DNA of 38,108 nucleotides from a virus (lineage: Duplodnaviria > Heunggongvirae > Uroviricota > Caudoviricetes): the IMG/VR virus record IMGVR_UViG_2563366933_000009, positions 1 to 38,108 of that record; one strand, given 5' to 3'. Below the pieces are notes generated by a model. That model ran no database searches, was not told the DNA's origin, and was given only the letters and a program-made list of their open reading frames with translations. Numbering within the stretch: position 1 is the stretch's first letter; each line of letters opens with the position of its first letter. The position numbers and the translations under genes are program-made. This document shows positions 24,228 to 38,108 of this stretch, in pieces.

Positions 24228-24412
24228 CGTCTTCCCCTTTTGCCCTGTTTGACCATCAGGACGCCGTTAACTATTACGTGACGCTCGCCTTTGCTGTCTC
24301 GGTTGTACTTGAGCACTGTTCCTCTTGCGCAGGAAAGCATCCTCGCCACTTCGGTCTGATTGCCTCGTGTCTGAATAAGAAGCTCTGGTATCGTTTGAAT
24401 TGTGGCGTTCAT
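24224..24412 (-). CDS. ninH: NinH-like small DNA-binding protein
   Basis: 62 aa, HTH-like QTEVARMLSCARGTVLKY; position upstream of Q as in lambda. Confidence 0.65.
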   Translation of the reverse strand: MNATIQTIPELLIQTRGNQTEVARMLSCARGTVLKYNRDSKGERHVIVNGVLMVKQGKRGRR

Positions 24413-24771
24413 GCGTTCTCCAGTTCGGTGATTTTTATTCCAAGCCTTCCACCTGGTACTTTCACGCCACGAATTACGCGAATGTCATCGAATTGCTCGT
24501 CGTCTTCCGCAAATCCGGCGTGGATAAGGGAGTCGAGTAAACCTTTCAGGATGTTGTCGAGGTCGCGGCGGCGGGAGTCTGGAACGTCTGCGATGACTTT
24601 GATACGGAGTCGTGATTTGGTGAAAATGTCTAACTTGAGTTGGCGAATGATTTGCTGAACGTCTTTTCGGTATTTCTGGCCTTTATCGCTGATGTAGTAT
24701 TGGCTTCCCCGTCTTCGCCAGTAGGTGTTCACCGACGGCGGGTATGGAAGCACAAACTGATATTCGTTCAT
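24409..24771 (-). CDS. rusA: RusA-type Holliday junction resolvase
   Basis: 120 aa; YPPSVNTYWRRRG...RRDLDNILKGLLDSL matches the RusA family. Confidence 0.9.
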   Translation of the reverse strand: MNEYQFVLPYPPSVNTYWRRRGSQYYISDKGQKYRKDVQQIIRQLKLDIFTKSRLRIKVIADVPDSRRRDLDNILKGLLDSLIHAGFAEDDEQFDDIRVIRGVKVPGGRLGIKITELENA

Positions 24772-25058
24772 GGCTTAATCTTCCCCTCCTTCAGCAGTAT
24801 CGCCTGCGTCCTGATCACGCCTTCCAGGTGGTAAAGTCTGGCGTCTTTGTTGTCGAGGTTATGGGTGCGTCGGTCGATTTCATCGTGACACGCGCTACAA
24901 GCCCATGCTCCGATCAGGTCGTCAGGTTTCATTCCCGTTCCGCAAATTCCAGCCATCCGGTAATGTGCCAGAACTGTAGTTTCAGGGTTGCCATTGCATA
25001 CGCCGTAAATACGTACCTGGCATTCTCTGCCGCGTGCTTCTTTGCGTAGGTTAGCCAT
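24768..25058 (-). CDS. YbcO-like protein (DUF1364, putative nuclease)
   Basis: 96 aa; RGRECQVRIYGVCNGNPETTVLAHY...CSACHDEIDRRTH resembles DLP12 YbcO. Confidence 0.7.
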   Translation of the reverse strand: MANLRKEARGRECQVRIYGVCNGNPETTVLAHYRMAGICGTGMKPDDLIGAWACSACHDEIDRRTHNLDNKDARLYHLEGVIRTQAILLKEGKIKP

Positions 25059-30055: not shown

Positions 30056-30742
30056 ATGGATAAATACGAACAAAGACGACTAAGGCTGATAGAGATAAGA
30101 GACCGATTCTGTAATGGAAAGGCCTCAGAGTTGGCTCGTCGAATAGAAAGGGAACCATCATACGTTTCCAGAATGCTGTATCCGGAAGGAAAAAGCGGAA
30201 AAAAACGCATTGCTGACGATATGATGGAGCTAATTGAAAAATCTTTTAATCTCCCACGCGGATGGATGGACATGCTTGCAGATGGTAAAGCTGGAGCTAC
30301 GGACCATCTTGAGTTTGCGGGTAACGTTCGTGCGGGTTTTGTTCCGGTAATTGGTGAAGCCGTTTTGGGAGTTGATGGCTCAGTGGATATGATTGAATTC
30401 AGATCCGGTTGGTTAAGCATCTACAGCGGCGATAAAGATGCTTACGGTCTGAAGGTTAAGGGTGACAGCATGTGGCCAAGGATTCAGTCAGGAGAATATG
30501 TTGTTATTGAACCAAATACGCCAGTACATCCAGGTGATGAAGTCTTTGTAAGGACCAAAGACGGTCACAACATGATAAAGATCATGAACAAAACAAGAGA
30601 CGGTGATTATCAGTTTAGTAGCATAAACAGTGATCACCGCCCAATCACTCTTCCTGTTGAAGAAGTTGATAAAATGCATTTTGTTTCAGCTATTGTGAAA
30701 CACACCAGGTACGTAGACCAGGACGATCTGCCAAAAGTTTGA
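30056..30742 (+). CDS. cI: CI-like prophage repressor (HTH plus S24 LexA-like autopeptidase domain)
   Basis: 228 aa; C-terminal GDSMWPRI...GEYVVIEP...GDEVFVR...KIM signature of S24 peptidase-type repressors. Confidence 0.9.
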   Translation: MDKYEQRRLRLIEIRDRFCNGKASELARRIEREPSYVSRMLYPEGKSGKKRIADDMMELIEKSFNLPRGWMDMLADGKAGATDHLEFAGNVRAGFVPVIGEAVLGVDGSVDMIEFRSGWLSIYSGDKDAYGLKVKGDSMWPRIQSGEYVVIEPNTPVHPGDEVFVRTKDGHNMIKIMNKTRDGDYQFSSINSDHRPITLPVEEVDKMHFVSAIVKHTRYVDQDDLPKV

Positions 30743-31461: not shown

Positions 31462-31788
31462 ATGGATGCACAAACACGCCGCCGCGAACGTCGCGCAGAG
31501 AAACAGGCTCAATGGAAAGCAGCAAATCCCCTGTTGGTTGGGGTAAGCGCAAAACCAGTTAACCGCCCTATTCTCTCGCTGAATCGCAAACCGAAATCAC
31601 GAGTAGAAAGCGCACTGAATCCGATAGACCTTACGGTGCTGGCTGAATACCACGAACAGATTGAAAGCAACCTGCAGCGTATTGAGCGCAAGAATCAGCG
31701 CACATGGTACAGCAAGCCACGCAGTGAAATGGGTGTGACTTGTGTTGGTCGCCAGAAAATGAAATTAGGCAGCAAACCACTTATTTGA
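31462..31788 (+). CDS. N: Antitermination protein N (lambda-type)
   Basis: MDAQTRRRERRAEKQAQWKAANPLLVGVSAKPVNRPILSLNRKPKSRVESALNPIDLTVLAEY... is near-identical to lambda N. Confidence 0.95.
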   Translation: MDAQTRRRERRAEKQAQWKAANPLLVGVSAKPVNRPILSLNRKPKSRVESALNPIDLTVLAEYHEQIESNLQRIERKNQRTWYSKPRSEMGVTCVGRQKMKLGSKPLI

Positions 31789-32737: not shown

Positions 32738-32872
32738 ATGATGCACTTTCAGCTCGCGGGTAGCGGCGTCATGTCCGCTTTCTACCCGCACGAATCTGAA
32801 TTATCACGCCGAGTTAAACAATTAATCAGAGCAGCAAAGAAACAACTGGAGGCGTTATGCGCAATGAAATAG
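32738..32872 (+). CDS. cIII: cIII-like FtsH inhibitor peptide
   Basis: 44 aa (MMHFQLAGSGVMSAFYPHESELSRRVKQLIRAAKKQL...) with TAAGGAG Shine-Dalgarno; pattern resembles lambda CIII; below the ORF-track size cut-off. Confidence 0.55.
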   Translation: MMHFQLAGSGVMSAFYPHESELSRRVKQLIRAAKKQLEALCAMK

Positions 32873-33009
32873 CCATCAATCACCAGATGCTTCGTGCTGC
32901 ACAGAACAAAGCAGTAATAGCCAGATTTATTGGTGATTCCAAAATGTGGCTTGAAGCAAATAAAGCGATGAAATCAGCTATCAACCTTCCGTGGTATCGC
33001 AGGAAATGA
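32857..33009 (+). CDS. Kil-like small protein (tentative)
   Basis: 50 aa with IARFIGDSKMW...EA motif reminiscent of lambda Kil; TGGAGG Shine-Dalgarno; overlaps the cIII-like stop. Confidence 0.4.
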   Translation: MRNEIAINHQMLRAAQNKAVIARFIGDSKMWLEANKAMKSAINLPWYRRK

Positions 33010-33090
33010 GTTTTACAGATAACTGGTCAGACGAAGAATTCATTCGTCAGATGAACAAAATGCTCAATCAGCACAAAGAACAGGAGAAAG

Positions 33091-33402
33091 ATGATGATTC
33101 TGACTCTGAATGATAAGCGTGAAATATCGCAAATAATCGCAAGTTTTACTGATGAAGATTACGAGCGAATCAACAGTGAAGTTGATCGCCTCTGCAAACG
33201 TTGCGACCCAATAAGCGAAATGCTTCGCTCATATAAACCAGATGAACACACTAAGGACGCTATCGACTGGCTGGAAGATGATGACTGTAACTATCAGGAA
33301 AAAGCCGCTGAATGGTTCTGGGATGCAATAACCGAAAGAGTTAAGGCTGAATATGCCTTCGCAATATTCAAACGCAGACATATTTATGGAGAAGCTGCAT
33401 GA
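33091..33402 (+). CDS. Hypothetical acidic protein upstream of recT
   Basis: 103-aa ORF, ATGA-coupled to recT. Confidence 0.55.
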   Translation: MMILTLNDKREISQIIASFTDEDYERINSEVDRLCKRCDPISEMLRSYKPDEHTKDAIDWLEDDDCNYQEKAAEWFWDAITERVKAEYAFAIFKRRHIYGEAA

Positions 33403-34301
33403 GCAATATCGTTGAATTCGTTAAACAGCAAGAGCAGTTATTCTGCGGAGCATTGACTGAACAGACGGTGACATGGGCTAAGGAAAGCCAGTTTGCAATT
33501 CAGTATTTCCAGAAAAACGATTACCTGGCTAAAACAGCACTGGCAAATCCAACCAGCGCACAGAACGCCATCATCAATGTTGCGGCGATCGGCATCACCT
33601 TAAACCCGGCCAGCAAACTGGCTTATCTGGTTCCTCGCGACGGCATGGTGTGCCTTGATATCAGTTACATGGGATTACTTCATCTTGCGCAATCGACAGG
33701 ATCAATTAAGTGGGGGCAATGCAAACTGGTGTACTCAAACGACACCTATGAATCAAATGGCCTTGATTCAGCACCAACTCACAAATACAACGCATTTGGT
33801 GAACGAGGCTCTATTGTTGGTGGTTATTGCACGGTTAAAACAGCAGATGGTGACTACCTGACTGAAGAAATGAGTCTGGCAGAAATTAAAGCTGTGGAGG
33901 CAACGAGCAAGGCAAAGAATGGACCGTGGAAGACATTCTGGGAAGAGATGGCGCGTAAAACCATAGTTAAACGCGCCAGCAAATACTGGCCTAAAGCCCA
34001 GCGACTGGATAATGCCATTCACCTGCTTAACGAAGATGAAGGTATGCATCAGGAACCAGTTATGCCGCACAAATCAGAGGAAGATATCCGCGAAGATGAA
34101 CGAAAACGCCAGCAGGAAATAACGGATAAAGCACAACTTCTTTGTGATGAAATGGCTCAGGCAGAAAACATGGATGATTTGAAGCGATATTTTGCAGAAG
34201 CATATCGCCTGACATCTGGAATGAAATTGCAGCAGAACGTACAAGCCATTTACGCAGAATGCAAAGCTAAACTGGAGGTTGCCAGTGAGCAAACTGTATG
34301 A
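33399..34301 (+). CDS. recT: RecT-family single-strand annealing recombinase
   Basis: 300 aa; conserved RecT-like core recognised from the translation (recall of Rac-type RecT). Confidence 0.85.
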   Translation: MSNIVEFVKQQEQLFCGALTEQTVTWAKESQFAIQYFQKNDYLAKTALANPTSAQNAIINVAAIGITLNPASKLAYLVPRDGMVCLDISYMGLLHLAQSTGSIKWGQCKLVYSNDTYESNGLDSAPTHKYNAFGERGSIVGGYCTVKTADGDYLTEEMSLAEIKAVEATSKAKNGPWKTFWEEMARKTIVKRASKYWPKAQRLDNAIHLLNEDEGMHQEPVMPHKSEEDIREDERKRQQEITDKAQLLCDEMAQAENMDDLKRYFAEAYRLTSGMKLQQNVQAIYAECKAKLEVASEQTV

Positions 34302-34767
34302 AATTGCCAATGAATACGCAAAATTGATGGATTCAGATTTAGAACCAGAGATGATTGCTGACACAATAGAAGGCATGGAAGGAGAATTTACCGATAAAAT
34401 AGAGCAACTTCTTGCCATTATTAAAAATGAGTCTGGTTATGCTGAACGCCTCAAGAAAGAGGCAAAGTCACTGAATGAAAGAGCAGCAGTAATTCAAAAT
34501 AAGATTGATAGCATTATGACGTATATAGCGTCATCGCTTGAAATGGTTGGAAAGAAAAAGATTCGAGCAGGTATTCACCAGGTAACAATCCGCAAACCGT
34601 CAGAAACTGTAGAAATCATCGACTCAAGCGCCCTTCCTCCTGAATACGTTGAGTTCGAAACGACAATTAAAGCCGACAAACTGGCAATCAAACACCAACT
34701 AAAAGCAGGAATAAATATCCCCGGTGCTCAACTCAAAGTTGGGAAACCTTCACTTCTTATCAAATAA
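34285..34767 (+). CDS. Hypothetical protein downstream of recT (possibly Gp157-like)
   Basis: GTG start 6 nt after GGAGG; coiled-coil-rich 160-aa product; family assignment is tentative. Confidence 0.5.
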   Translation: MSKLYEIANEYAKLMDSDLEPEMIADTIEGMEGEFTDKIEQLLAIIKNESGYAERLKKEAKSLNERAAVIQNKIDSIMTYIASSLEMVGKKKIRAGIHQVTIRKPSETVEIIDSSALPPEYVEFETTIKADKLAIKHQLKAGINIPGAQLKVGKPSLLIK

Positions 34768-34778
34768 CGGTATCGCCT

Positions 34779-35093
34779 ATGAAAAAGACTCCTTGGGAGA
34801 AATGGGAAGTCGATTTCTTACGCGAAGTAGCGGCGACAATGCCAGTTGAAGTTATCGCTGAAAAACTGGAAAGGACTGAAAAAGCAGTTATGGCGAAAGC
34901 AACAAGGATTGGCGCTGACATTGTTAGCCGACTTCGTGGAAGACGCTGGACAAGAGCCGAAGTATCACTTTTCGGTAAGTTCTCCGCAGAAGAAATAGCA
35001 ATTGCAACCTGCCGCTCAATTTATTCAGTAAGAGCTATGCGATACAAGCTAAAAAAACTCGATGAAGAAAGAGCAGGCATACGAATAAATTAA
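34779..35093 (+). CDS. Hypothetical protein
   Basis: 104-aa ORF with two Trp-containing repeats ([10 protein letters not shown]..., [11 protein letters not shown]...) suggestive of a SANT/Myb-like fold. Confidence 0.45.
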
Positions 35094-37907: not shown

Positions 37908-38108
37908 ATGCAACACGAACTACAGCCTGATTCACTGGTTGATTTGAAATTCATCATGGCCGATACTGGCTTCGGTAAAACCTTCATCTACGACCGGATT
38001 AAGTCCGGCGACCTGCCAAAAGCCAAAGTTATCCACGGACGAGCAAGATGGTTATATCGTGACCATTGTGAATTCAAAAATAAGCTCTTAAGCCGCGCTA
38101 ATGGGTAA
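37908..38108 (+). CDS. xis: Excisionase-like (AlpA/Xis family) DNA-binding protein
   Basis: 66 aa; LVDLKFIMADTGFGKTFIYDRIKSGDLP...RWLYRDH fits the winged-helix excisionase/AlpA pattern; last gene before the expected integrase, which lies beyond the window. Confidence 0.6.
   Translation: MQHELQPDSLVDLKFIMADTGFGKTFIYDRIKSGDLPKAKVIHGRARWLYRDHCEFKNKLLSRANG

What the first reader, a model, noticed from the sequence alone, without database searches (positions are those of the whole stretch)
33091..34767. RecT recombinase without a recognisable partner exonuclease
RecT-type annealases normally pair with an exonuclease (RecE or lambda-Exo-like). Here recT is flanked by a 103-aa acidic ORF upstream and a coiled-coil ORF of about 160 aa downstream, neither of which looks like a nuclease. 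These may be novel recombination accessory or anti-RecBCD factors (Abc/Gam analogues).
Basis: inference. Interest (0 to 1): 0.4.

Follow-up and report, generated by a model that had tools for sequence, protein, structure and literature searches.

The report
Exonuclease-free RecT module with two Gam-like genes
This is the recombination module of a P22-like E. coli prophage: RecT really has no partner nuclease, which is a common and already catalogued arrangement, and both flanking genes look like protectors against the host RecBCD nuclease; only the upstream one is new, a previously unnamed distant relative of lambda Gam.

Summary
33091-34767 carries three translationally coupled genes: an acidic 103-aa ORF, RecT, and a 160-aa coiled-coil ORF. 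No Exo/YqaJ or RecE-type nuclease was found anywhere in the 38-kb window.

The window is a P22-like lambdoid prophage, and the genes lie in the pL operon after cIII and kil. The same module occurs in phages HK140, mEpX1, Kapi1 and Gally, and in 160 complete E. coli genomes.

The downstream ORF is not novel. It belongs to Pfam Sipho_Gp157, labelled 'Mu Gam-like end protection' in PHROGs. Zheng et al. 2025 already list HK140 as RecT-type annealase with MuGam and no nuclease; 84 of their 246 lambdoid Rec modules lack a nuclease.

Verdict: an ordinary, known module type plus one modestly new family assignment.

The parts
32738..32872 (+). cIII gene; context marker. Lambda's order is cIII-kil-gam-bet-exo.
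   Evidence: PF08134 cIII, E 2e-30. Lambda gene order.
32857..33009 (+). kil gene; context marker just upstream of the Rec module.
   Evidence: PF06301 Lambda_Kil, E 1.7e-20.
32991..33113 (+). 40-aa ORF with a very acidic C-terminus, between kil and the Gam-like gene. Function unknown.
   Evidence: phrog_17766 at 7.6e-16 and phrog_2123 at 5.3e-10. Detected in 75 of 80 related viral contigs.
33091..33402 (+). Acidic 103-aa (or 102-aa) all-helical protein of phrog_3486. Proposed to be a divergent lambda-Gam-fold RecBCD inhibitor, translationally coupled to recT.
   Evidence: - No Pfam or NCBIfam hit.
- AF2 model has pLDDT 81.
- It occupies the gam slot.
- The family HMM scores real Gam at a median of 12.2 bits, against a maximum of 9.6 bits for 2400 shuffles.
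- pI is 4.65.
33399..34301 (+). RecT-family single-strand annealing protein, the same type as phi80 Rec (SAP-4 of Zheng et al.). Its last ~75 aa form a tail found only with Gp157 partners.
   Evidence: PF03837, E 1.9e-33. phrog_148, E 5.7e-92. 57% identical to phi80 Rec over residues 4-217 only. Tail analysis.
34285..34767 (+). Sipho_Gp157 family protein of 160 aa, MuGam-type. Presumed to bind and protect dsDNA ends. It sits in the slot that Exo holds in lambda and phi80.
   Evidence: - PF05565, E 1.9e-36 over the full length.
- phrog_253 'Mu Gam-like end protection', E 2.2e-53.
- Weak collinear match to PF07352 Mu Gam, E 0.0065, below the cut-off.
- AF2 model shows a coiled coil plus a beta domain.
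- HK140's copy is classed as MuGam in PMC12315714.
34779..35093 (+). Basic 104-aa protein (pI 10) with two helix-turn-helix-like repeats, Abc1-like. An accessory protein of unknown molecular role.
   Evidence: phrog_323 at 2.8e-20. P22 Abc1 (1.3e-23) and Mu gp9 (5.2e-29) hit the same PHROG. BLASTP to Mu gp9 gives 5e-5; BLASTP to P22 Abc1 finds nothing. Annotated 'similar to P22 Abc1' in phage Gally.
25602..26012 (-). NinB/Orf recombination mediator in the nin region; another recombination function of the same phage.
   Evidence: PF05772, E 4.8e-55.
24409..25058 (-). YbcO putative nuclease (24768-25058) and RusA Holliday-junction resolvase (24409-24771). These are junction-processing proteins, not end-resection exonucleases.
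   Evidence: PF07102, E 1.8e-44, and PF05866, E 1.1e-16.

Best explanation
This is a four-gene, nuclease-free homologous-recombination (Rec) module in the early-left (pL) operon of a P22-like, headful-packaging lambdoid prophage of E. coli. The gene order is Gam-like (103 aa), RecT, Gp157 (MuGam-type), Abc1-like.

Proposed mechanism; every functional step is inferred from family membership, none was tested here:
1. After injection or induction, N-antiterminated pL transcription expresses the four coupled genes.
2. The acidic 103-aa protein has the lambda GamS fold. Like Gam, it probably binds RecBCD as a DNA mimic and blocks DNA entry.
3. Gp157, a coiled-coil dimer related to Mu Gam/Ku, binds the linear genome ends and shields them from RecBCD and other exonucleases.
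4. RecT anneals complementary single strands. This would circularise the terminally redundant genome, feed recombination-dependent replication, and allow exchange with related prophages.
5. The single strands would come from host functions (replication forks, RecQ/RecJ-type resection), not from a phage exonuclease.
6. RecT's partner-specific C-terminal tail may tether it to Gp157 at ends, as other annealases are tethered to Exo or RecE.

What is shown: gene identities, order, coupling, absence of a nuclease, conservation, and fold and slot equivalence to Gam. What is inferred: RecBCD inhibition, end binding, the RecT-Gp157 contact and the source of ssDNA.
For: Module identity and recurrence:
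- Phages Kapi1, mEpX1, HK140, Louie and Gally carry the same module at about 93% DNA identity. 160 complete E. coli genomes hold at least 80% of it.
- 77 of 80 IMG/VR contigs anchored on Gp157 carry the 103-aa ORF, RecT, Gp157 and the Abc1-like gene. None carries Exo, RecE, Abc2, Gam, GamL, Erf or Bet.

Literature:
- PMC12315714 names HK140 as SAP-4 with no nuclease, no SSB, and MuGam as its anti-RecBCD protein.
- It reports that 84 of 246 Rec modules lack a nuclease, and that phages with Rec modules mostly lack Chi sites.
- The window has no Chi site on either strand.

The 103-aa ORF as Gam-like:
- It lies in lambda's gam position after cIII and kil.
- In sister RecT-Gp157 modules, a genuine PF06064 Gam fills the same coupled slot (Dewey; L106).
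- The family also precedes RecT plus YqaJ exonuclease, the lambda-style layout. It also precedes RecE-like nucleases. It therefore does not depend on one annealase type.
- It never co-occurs with Gam, GamL or Abc2 in the sampled loci.
- The family HMM scores 120 real Gam proteins at a median of 12.2 bits (best 16.5). The maximum for 2400 shuffled Gam sequences is 9.6 bits. The five best non-family ORFs in a background of 1,767 ORFs all occupy the same slot: three Gam proteins (L106, Dewey, lambda) and two variants of a Serratia 117-aa protein.
- The whole family is acidic, with median pI 4.65.

The RecT tail:
- An Exo-type tail is shared by phi80, L012 and a Klebsiella phage whose annealase core is unrelated.
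- The window, Dewey and L015, all partnered with Gp157, share a different tail.
Against: - No biochemical data exist for this 103-aa family.
- Standard sequence searches do not link it to Gam. There is no Pfam PF06064 hit at E <= 0.1. The best 54 hits of the 1.84-billion-protein profile search are dominated by ~100-aa family members; their identities were not individually checked, so this is only indirect. hhalign gives only 12-17% probability.
- Foldseek against the PDB did not return Gam.
- The N-terminal motif MNAY..DR.E..W, shared by Gam and GamL and forming the helix that plugs RecB, is not conserved.
- Zheng et al. did not count this gene as an anti-RecBCD protein. Two anti-RecBCD proteins in one module is rare in their panel (only HK639).
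- Gp157's link to Mu Gam is below Pfam's cut-off (16.9 against 28.3 bits). No Ku/Gam fold match was obtained.
- If Gp157 blocks ends, how ssDNA is produced for RecT is unexplained.
- One Gp157-partnered annealase (L007) lacks the Gp157-type tail.
Confidence: 0.6

Rival explanations
1. The 103-aa protein is not a host-nuclease inhibitor. Instead it is a cofactor or regulator of the phage recombinase, like P22 Arf for Erf, and its similarity to the Gam fold is coincidental for a small helical protein.
For: - It occupies the arf position of P22 (c3-kil-arf-erf).
- It is always translationally coupled to the first gene of the Rec module.
- The sequence link to Gam is sub-threshold.
- Foldseek missed Gam.
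- The Gam N-terminal motif is absent.
Against: - It precedes unrelated partners: RecT cores, a non-RecT annealase (L007) and RecE-like nucleases (L013, SEN22). That fits a host-directed role better than a partner-specific one.
- A genuine Gam replaces it in the same slot.
- There is no similarity to Arf.
- The HMM signal is specific to Gam.
Confidence: 0.2
2. The module is a decayed remnant that has lost its exonuclease, so RecT here is non-functional or only marginally functional.
For: Close relatives of this RecT core are paired with Exo in phi80, ENT47670 and Midgardsormr38. Zheng et al. caution that some small modules may be suspect.
Against: - The four ORFs are intact and overlapping.
- They are conserved in isolated, plaque-forming phages (Kapi1, HK140, mEpX1, Gally, Louie) and in 77 of 80 viral contigs.
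- The trio is kept at 29-46% protein identity in distant contigs.
- RecT carries a distinct, conserved tail instead of the Exo-type tail. That pattern indicates replacement, not loss.
Confidence: 0.05
3. Gp157 is not mainly an anti-RecBCD end protector. It is the functional substitute for the exonuclease: an end-recognition and loading factor that recruits RecT, or host nucleases or ligase, to DNA ends, in a Ku-like, NHEJ- or SSA-like pathway.
For: - It sits exactly in the Exo slot, overlapping the 3' end of recT.
- Exo and Gp157 alternate downstream of similar RecT cores.
- The RecT tail changes with the partner.
- The module already has a Gam-like gene, so a second pure RecBCD blocker would be redundant.
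- From my own knowledge of the paper, not read here: Mu Gam promotes end joining with E. coli ligase (Bhattacharyya 2018; only its citation was seen, in PMC12315714).
Against: - No interaction data exist.
- L007's annealase with a Gp157 partner lacks the tail.
- In Firmicutes phages, gp157-like and Mu-gam-like genes lie upstream of erf/sak4-ssb modules rather than in an Exo slot (PMC8093625).
- This reading overlaps with the best explanation rather than excluding it.
Confidence: 0.3

Closest known systems
HK140-type Rec module (SAP-4 + MuGam, no nuclease, no SSB) of Zheng, Casjens, Davidson, Amundsen & Smith 2025, Genome Res (PMC12315714)
   Same: The RecT, Gp157 and Abc1-like genes are the same, at about 93% DNA identity. 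The 103-aa ORF is 100% identical in HK140. The pL-operon position is the same.
   Different: Nothing substantive differs. This window is another copy of that module. What is added here is the reading of the upstream 103-aa gene as Gam-like. On the main text (the supplementary tables were not held), that paper does not appear to count it among anti-RecBCD genes.
Lambda Red module (gam-bet-exo) and phi80 module (gamL-rec-exo)
   Same: - The operon position after cIII and kil is the same.
- A small acidic ~100-aa protein comes first and an annealase second, with coupled genes.
- The RecT core is 57% identical to phi80 Rec.
- The 103-aa protein's predicted fold best matches lambda GamS.
   Different: - The third gene is Gp157/MuGam-type, not a 5'-3' exonuclease.
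- The 103-aa protein fails the Pfam Gam model.
- It lacks the Gam/GamL N-terminal motif.
- RecT has a different C-terminal tail.
P22 recombination region (arf-erf-abc1-abc2)
   Same: The virus type (Lederbergvirus) and operon position are the same. There is no phage exonuclease. An Abc1-like gene (phrog_323) lies downstream of the annealase.
   Different: The annealase is RecT, not Erf. There is no Abc2, the protein that binds RecC, and no Arf. Gp157 is absent from P22 (note 'absent in P22').
Phage Mu Gam (PF07352; Ku-like dsDNA end binder)
   Same: Size is similar (160 against 174 aa). Both have a coiled coil plus a C-terminal beta region. There is a collinear weak HMM match. PHROGs gives both the same functional label. 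A phrog_323 gene is adjacent in both: Mu gp9 next to gam.
   Different: They are different Pfam and PHROG families (PF05565/phrog_253 against PF07352/phrog_491). The match to PF07352 is below the cut-off. End binding has not been tested for this protein.

Membership tests
RecT family (PF03837 / TIGR00616) | Profile match above the curated cut-off over the annealase core | tested here: met
   PF03837 scores 116.2 bits (cut-off 24) over residues 31-214. TIGR00616 scores 76.8 bits (cut-off 52.65). The Rac RecT equivalog NF007351 is not reached (91 against 296 bits), so this is a family member, not a Rac RecT orthologue.
Sipho_Gp157 (PF05565) | Full-length profile match above the gathering score | tested here: met
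   126 bits (cut-off 28.6), residues 5-162 against profile positions 1-162 of 162. The listed homologues all carry PF05565.
Mu Gam / Ku-like end-binding proteins (PF07352) | Profile match above the gathering score | tested here: not met
   16.9 bits against a cut-off of 28.3, E 0.0065, though collinear (41-161 against 29-147 of 149). hhalign against Mu Gam alone gives E 0.062. Mu Gam falls in phrog_491, not phrog_253.
Mu Gam / Ku-like end-binding proteins (PF07352) | Dimeric coiled coil plus beta domain with a Ku-core-like fold | tested here: inconclusive
   The AF2 monomer (pLDDT 77) shows a long helix at 23-90 followed by beta strands. Foldseek against the PDB gave no significant hit. No Mu Gam chain was returned by the PDB sequence or Foldseek searches.
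Mu Gam / Ku-like end-binding proteins (PF07352) | Binds dsDNA ends and blocks exonucleases | not testable with these tools
   Needs EMSA or exonuclease-protection assays.
Lambda Gam (PF06064) | Profile match above the gathering score | tested here: not met
   No PF06064 hit at E <= 0.1. PDB sequence searches do not return Gam.
Lambda Gam (PF06064) | GamS fold | tested here: met
Lambda Gam (PF06064) | Detectable residual sequence similarity specific to Gam | tested here: inconclusive
   - The HMM of the 103-aa family scores real Gam at a median of 12.2 bits (best 16.5), against a maximum of 9.6 bits for 2400 shuffles.
- The two families share the motif D-D-x-x-[FY]-Q-E.
- The alignment is collinear over the full length, but hhalign gives only 12-17% probability.
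Lambda Gam (PF06064) | N-terminal helix motif (MNAY..DR.E..W) shared by Gam and GamL, which enters the RecB ssDNA channel | tested here: not met
   The motif is conserved between Gam and GamL (hhalign 91%; alignment). In the 103-aa family only D8 and E11 line up.
Lambda Gam (PF06064) | Small acidic protein encoded immediately upstream of the annealase, after cIII and kil | tested here: met
   pI 4.65. Gene order. A genuine Gam occupies the same slot in Dewey and L106.
Lambda Gam (PF06064) | Dimer that binds RecBCD and inhibits it | not testable with these tools
   Needs pull-down, nuclease or helicase assays, or a complex prediction.
Lambda Exo / YqaJ (PF09588) or RecE / DUF3799 partner exonuclease | A PD-(D/E)XK 5'-3' exonuclease gene in or next to the Rec module | tested here: not met
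   No such family turned up in the Pfam or PHROGs scans of the window. tblastn with five nucleases gave nothing better than E = 0.39. The same queries or families are detected in other loci.
P22 Abc1 (phrog_323) | Membership of the same profile family as P22 Abc1 | tested here: met
   Window 34779-35093 hits phrog_323 at 2.8e-20, P22 Abc1 at 1.3e-23 and Mu gp9 at 5.2e-29. Pairwise BLASTP to P22 Abc1 finds nothing, so the relationship is distant.
P22 Abc2 (phrog_656) | Presence of an Abc2 homologue | tested here: not met
   tblastn of Abc2 against the window gave nothing better than E = 2.1. The 103-aa ORF against Abc2 gives E 2.9.

The most novel reading that the evidence does not exclude
The unnamed 103-aa family (phrog_3486; 54 representatives at 50% identity) is a third, previously unrecognised sequence type of lambda-Gam-fold RecBCD inhibitor, alongside Gam and GamL.

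If so, HK140-type modules carry two different anti-RecBCD strategies at once: a DNA mimic and an end binder. RecT would then work with a Ku-like end binder, docked through its swapped C-terminal tail, instead of with an exonuclease. That would be a nuclease-free two-component end-recombination machine.
Probability: 0.3. Interest if true: 0.55.

Novelty: new member of a known kind. Interest (0 to 1): 0.33.

Why it matters
The module itself is ordinary, so 'RecT without an exonuclease' should not be read as an anomaly. Two points have some value.

1. Naming the 103-aa family as Gam-like would change the catalogue. Modules such as ENT47670 or Midgardsormr38 (RecT + Exo) carry no recognised RecBCD inhibitor in the stretches examined here. 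They would become lambda-style three-gene modules. It would also add a new sequence type of RecBCD inhibitor. RecBCD inhibitors are of practical interest as recombineering helpers, as quinolone potentiators (PMC5218532), and because they are linked to the activity of defence systems such as Gabija and OLD (abstracts).

2. The partner-specific RecT tail gives a simple testable handle on how annealases are matched to Exo or to Gp157.

Tried and rejected
- Foldseek against the PDB gave no hit with E < 0.7 for either AF2 model.
- PDB sequence and profile searches returned only noise.
- The 103-aa ORF against P22 Arf, P22 Abc2 and phi80 GamL gave nothing. This holds for BLASTP and for hhalign against a 6-sequence GamL alignment (E 0.3).
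- hhalign of the 103-aa family against phi80 GamL alone gave a collinear 85-column alignment, but only 4% probability. I did not use it as evidence.
- BLASTP of the 104-aa ORF against P22 Abc1 gave nothing. The relationship appears only at PHROG level.
- The search for related loci with the Gp157 alignment returned only near-identical copies, 96-99%. It says little about distant Gp157 contexts.
- The supplementary tables of PMC12315714 are not held. I could not check how HK140's upstream gene is listed there.
- T4 UvsY appeared among the Foldseek noise (E > 3, probability <= 0.07) and was dismissed.
- I considered and rejected the idea that Gp157 is a hidden nuclease. Pfam, PHROGs and NCBIfam found no nuclease family in it, and Foldseek found no significant structural match.
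Full report
**What is in the sequence**

The + strand from 30 to 38 kb is the early-left (pL) operon of a lambdoid prophage. In order it carries:
- an S24 repressor (30056-30742);
- N (31462-31788);
- a DUF2528 gene;
- cIII (32738-32872);
- kil (32857-33009);
- a 40-aa ORF;
- the three ORFs of the finding;
- a 104-aa ORF (34779-35093);
- DUF2737, EaE-like, Ead/Ea22, DUF551 and ASCH-like genes;
- an excisionase that starts at 37908 and runs to the window end.

The rest of the window encodes P22-type virion proteins, an ant/arc/mnt immunity region, lysis genes, and a Q gene. It also carries a nin region with NinB, YbcO, RusA and NinH, and O-like and DnaB-like replication genes. The closest phage records are Lederbergvirus members and relatives: Kapi1, mEpX1, HK140, Louie and Gally.

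**The observation**

The three ORFs exist as described.
- The upstream ORF (33091-33402) is acidic: pI 4.65, 24 D/E against 15 K/R.
- RecT (33399-34301) is a solid RecT-family member.
- The downstream ORF most likely starts at the GTG at 34285, 6 nt after a GGAGG. That gives 160 aa, the length of all homologues. Its AF2 model is one long helix followed by a small beta domain.

The genes are translationally coupled. The first pair has a GCATGA stop/start overlap behind a GGAG. The second pair overlaps by 17 nt.

No Exo/YqaJ, RecE/DUF3799 or Abc2 gene was found in the window. This holds for profile scans of the pL operon, the nin region and the accessory and larger structural ORFs. It also holds for tblastn with five nucleases against all six frames.

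**The downstream ORF is a known family**

It matches Pfam Sipho_Gp157 over its full length at 126 bits. It also matches PHROG 253, labelled 'Mu Gam-like end protection'.

Its link to Mu Gam proper is weak:
- PF07352 scores 16.9 bits against a cut-off of 28.3, although the match is collinear.
- Mu Gam itself falls in a different PHROG.
- hhalign against the single Mu Gam sequence and Foldseek against the PDB gave nothing useful.

I therefore file it as a Gp157-family protein that probably works like Mu Gam, not as a proven Mu Gam member.

**This module type is already described**

Zheng, Casjens, Davidson, Amundsen and Smith (Genome Res 2025, PMC12315714) analysed 325 lambdoid phages.
- They name four anti-RecBCD protein types: Gam, GamL, Abc2 and MuGam.
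- They report that 84 of 246 Rec modules have no nuclease gene.
- They use HK140 as their example of annealase type SAP-4 working with no SSB, no nuclease and a MuGam-type protein.

HK140 shares this module at about 93% DNA identity, and its 103-aa ORF is 100% identical. The module also occurs in 160 of 5,426 complete E. coli genomes.

In 80 IMG/VR contigs anchored on Gp157, 77 carry the 103-aa ORF, RecT, Gp157 and the Abc1-like gene. None carries Exo, RecE, Abc2, Gam, GamL, Erf or Bet. The three exceptions are truncated.

As that paper predicts for phages with a Rec module and a RecBCD inhibitor, the window has no Chi site on either strand. So 'RecT without an exonuclease' is real but ordinary.

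**The upstream ORF is the one new point**

It has no Pfam or NCBIfam family and only an unannotated PHROG. An exhaustive profile search of 1.84 billion proteins finds a small family of 54 representatives. Most are about 100 aa, all 35 aligned members are acidic, and most of them end in E-[AV]-A. That ending is what a Shine-Dalgarno sequence plus an ATGA overlap with the next gene would encode.

Four independent lines tie the family to lambda Gam.

1. *Position.*
   - Lambda has cIII-kil-gam-bet-exo. Here the order is cIII-kil-(40 aa)-103 aa-recT.
   - In sister RecT-Gp157 modules, a genuine PF06064 Gam fills the same coupled slot (Dewey; L106).
   - In Cronobacter L107 the slot holds a family member.

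2. *Context.*
   - The family also precedes RecT plus a YqaJ exonuclease, which is the lambda layout. This is seen in L014, ENT47670 and Midgardsormr38.
   - It precedes RecE-like DUF3799 nucleases in L013 and SEN22.
   - It precedes a non-RecT annealase plus Gp157 in L007.
   - It is therefore not tied to one recombinase.
   - It never co-occurs with Gam, GamL or Abc2 in the loci sampled.

4. *Sequence.*
   - The family HMM scores 120 real Gam proteins at a median of 12.2 bits (best 16.5).
   - 2,400 composition-matched shuffles reach at most 9.6 bits, and Gp157 proteins reach 5.5.
   - Among 1,767 background ORFs, the five best non-family hits all occupy the same slot: three are Gam proteins (L106, Dewey, lambda) and two are variants of a Serratia 117-aa protein.
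   - The shared signal is a D-D-x-x-[FY]-Q-E motif within a collinear full-length alignment.

Against this:
- hhalign probabilities are only 12-17%.
- Pfam's Gam model does not hit, and Foldseek missed Gam.
- The N-terminal motif that Gam and GamL share is absent. That motif forms the helix plugging RecB's ssDNA channel (PMC5218532).

I put homology to, or a shared fold with, Gam at about 0.7. I put RecBCD inhibition as the function at about 0.55-0.6.

**A fourth gene belongs to the module**

The basic 104-aa ORF at 34779-35093 falls in PHROG 323 together with P22 Abc1 and Mu gp9. It is annotated as Abc1-like in phage Gally. It is retained next to Gp157 in L106, and next to an exoVIII-type module in SEN22. 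Its molecular role is unknown, as is that of Abc1 itself (PMC12315714).

**How the module probably works**

Shown: gene identities, order, coupling, conservation and the absence of a nuclease.

Inferred:
- The Gam-like protein disables RecBCD.
- Gp157 caps linear ends.
- RecT anneals single strands supplied by host functions. This would circularise the terminally redundant headful genome and feed recombination-dependent replication.

One further observation suggests that RecT and Gp157 interact physically. The last 75 residues of RecT vary with the partner, not with the core. The cores of the window and L012 are 74% identical, yet their tails are unrelated. L012's tail is 53-54% identical to the tails of phi80 Rec and of a Klebsiella phage annealase with an unrelated core, and both of those are followed by Exo. 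The window, Dewey and L015, all followed by Gp157, share another tail. This fits the 'shuffling of partner interaction domains' suggested by Zheng et al.. It remains unproven, and L007 is an exception.

**Verdict**

The only novelty is the proposed assignment of the 103-aa family as a divergent lambda-Gam-fold protein, a new member of a known kind. Interest is modest.

Noticed in passing
window 34075-34301 (RecT residues ~226-300); compare L012, L017 (phi80), L023, L015, L002: The last ~75 aa of RecT follow the partner gene, not the core. An 'Exo-type' tail is shared by phi80 Rec, L012 and a Klebsiella annealase with an unrelated core. Gp157-partnered RecTs share a different tail. This suggests a swappable partner-docking domain.
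   Followed up: partly
window 34779-35093; Mu gp9 (L005 5482-5781); P22 abc1 (L004 26970-27254): The Abc1-like gene, Mu gp9 and P22 Abc1 all hit phrog_323. A phrog_323 gene lies next to the Gam-type gene both in Mu (gp9-gam) and here (Gp157-Abc1-like). This may be a conserved two-gene unit.
   Followed up: partly
window 1-38108: There is no Chi site (GCTGGTGG) on either strand. About 0.44 per strand would be expected from base composition. This fits the rule in PMC12315714 that phages with a Rec module and a RecBCD inhibitor lack Chi.
   Followed up: yes
window 32991-33113: A 40-aa ORF with a highly acidic tail (…KEQEKDDDSDSE) lies between kil and the Gam-like gene. It is detected in 75 of 80 related viral contigs. 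It hits phrog_17766 and phrog_2123, the latter oddly labelled 'recombinase'. Function unknown.
   Followed up: partly
window 33388-33402 and alignment A4: Most members of the 103-aa family end in E-[AV]-A. In the window, the codons for the final residues GEAA carry the GGAG and the ATGA overlap with recT. The conserved ending probably reflects translational coupling rather than protein function.
   Followed up: partly
L018 (Salmonella phage SEN22) 4001-6013: Between the same 103-aa gene (96% identical) and the same Abc1-like gene, the RecT-Gp157 pair is replaced by a DUF3799 PD-(D/E)XK nuclease and a 189-aa protein with no Pfam family. This is a clean cassette swap; the 189-aa protein may be an unrecognised annealase.
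   Followed up: partly
L108/L109 (Serratia symbiotica) 1755-2108: A 117-aa protein occupies the slot upstream of RecT-Gp157 and ends in …EEVA. It is the best non-Gam background hit of the 103-aa family HMM, at about 10 bits. It may be a still more divergent family member.
   Followed up: no
L020 (Enterobacter phage BHUENT3) 1456-1782: Lambda Gam hits the GamL region of L020 at 36% identity, E 1.7e-6, through a tblastn segment that starts 45 nt upstream of the GamL ORF. Gam and GamL also share the N-terminal MNAY..DR.E..W motif. The two 'non-homologous sequence types' therefore appear to be homologous.
   Followed up: partly
window 34279-34287: The mechanical ORF start for Gp157 (TTG at 34279) is probably wrong. 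The GTG at 34285 sits 6 nt after a GGAGG and gives the 160-aa length of all homologues.
   Followed up: yes
proteins P0009, P0022, P0024: Some database relatives of the 103-aa ORF are chimeras: the N-terminal half is joined to EaE-like sequence (P0022, seen in the alignment) or to a protein carrying a DUF551 (P0009) or PF02447 (P0024) domain. They were excluded from the alignments.
   Followed up: no
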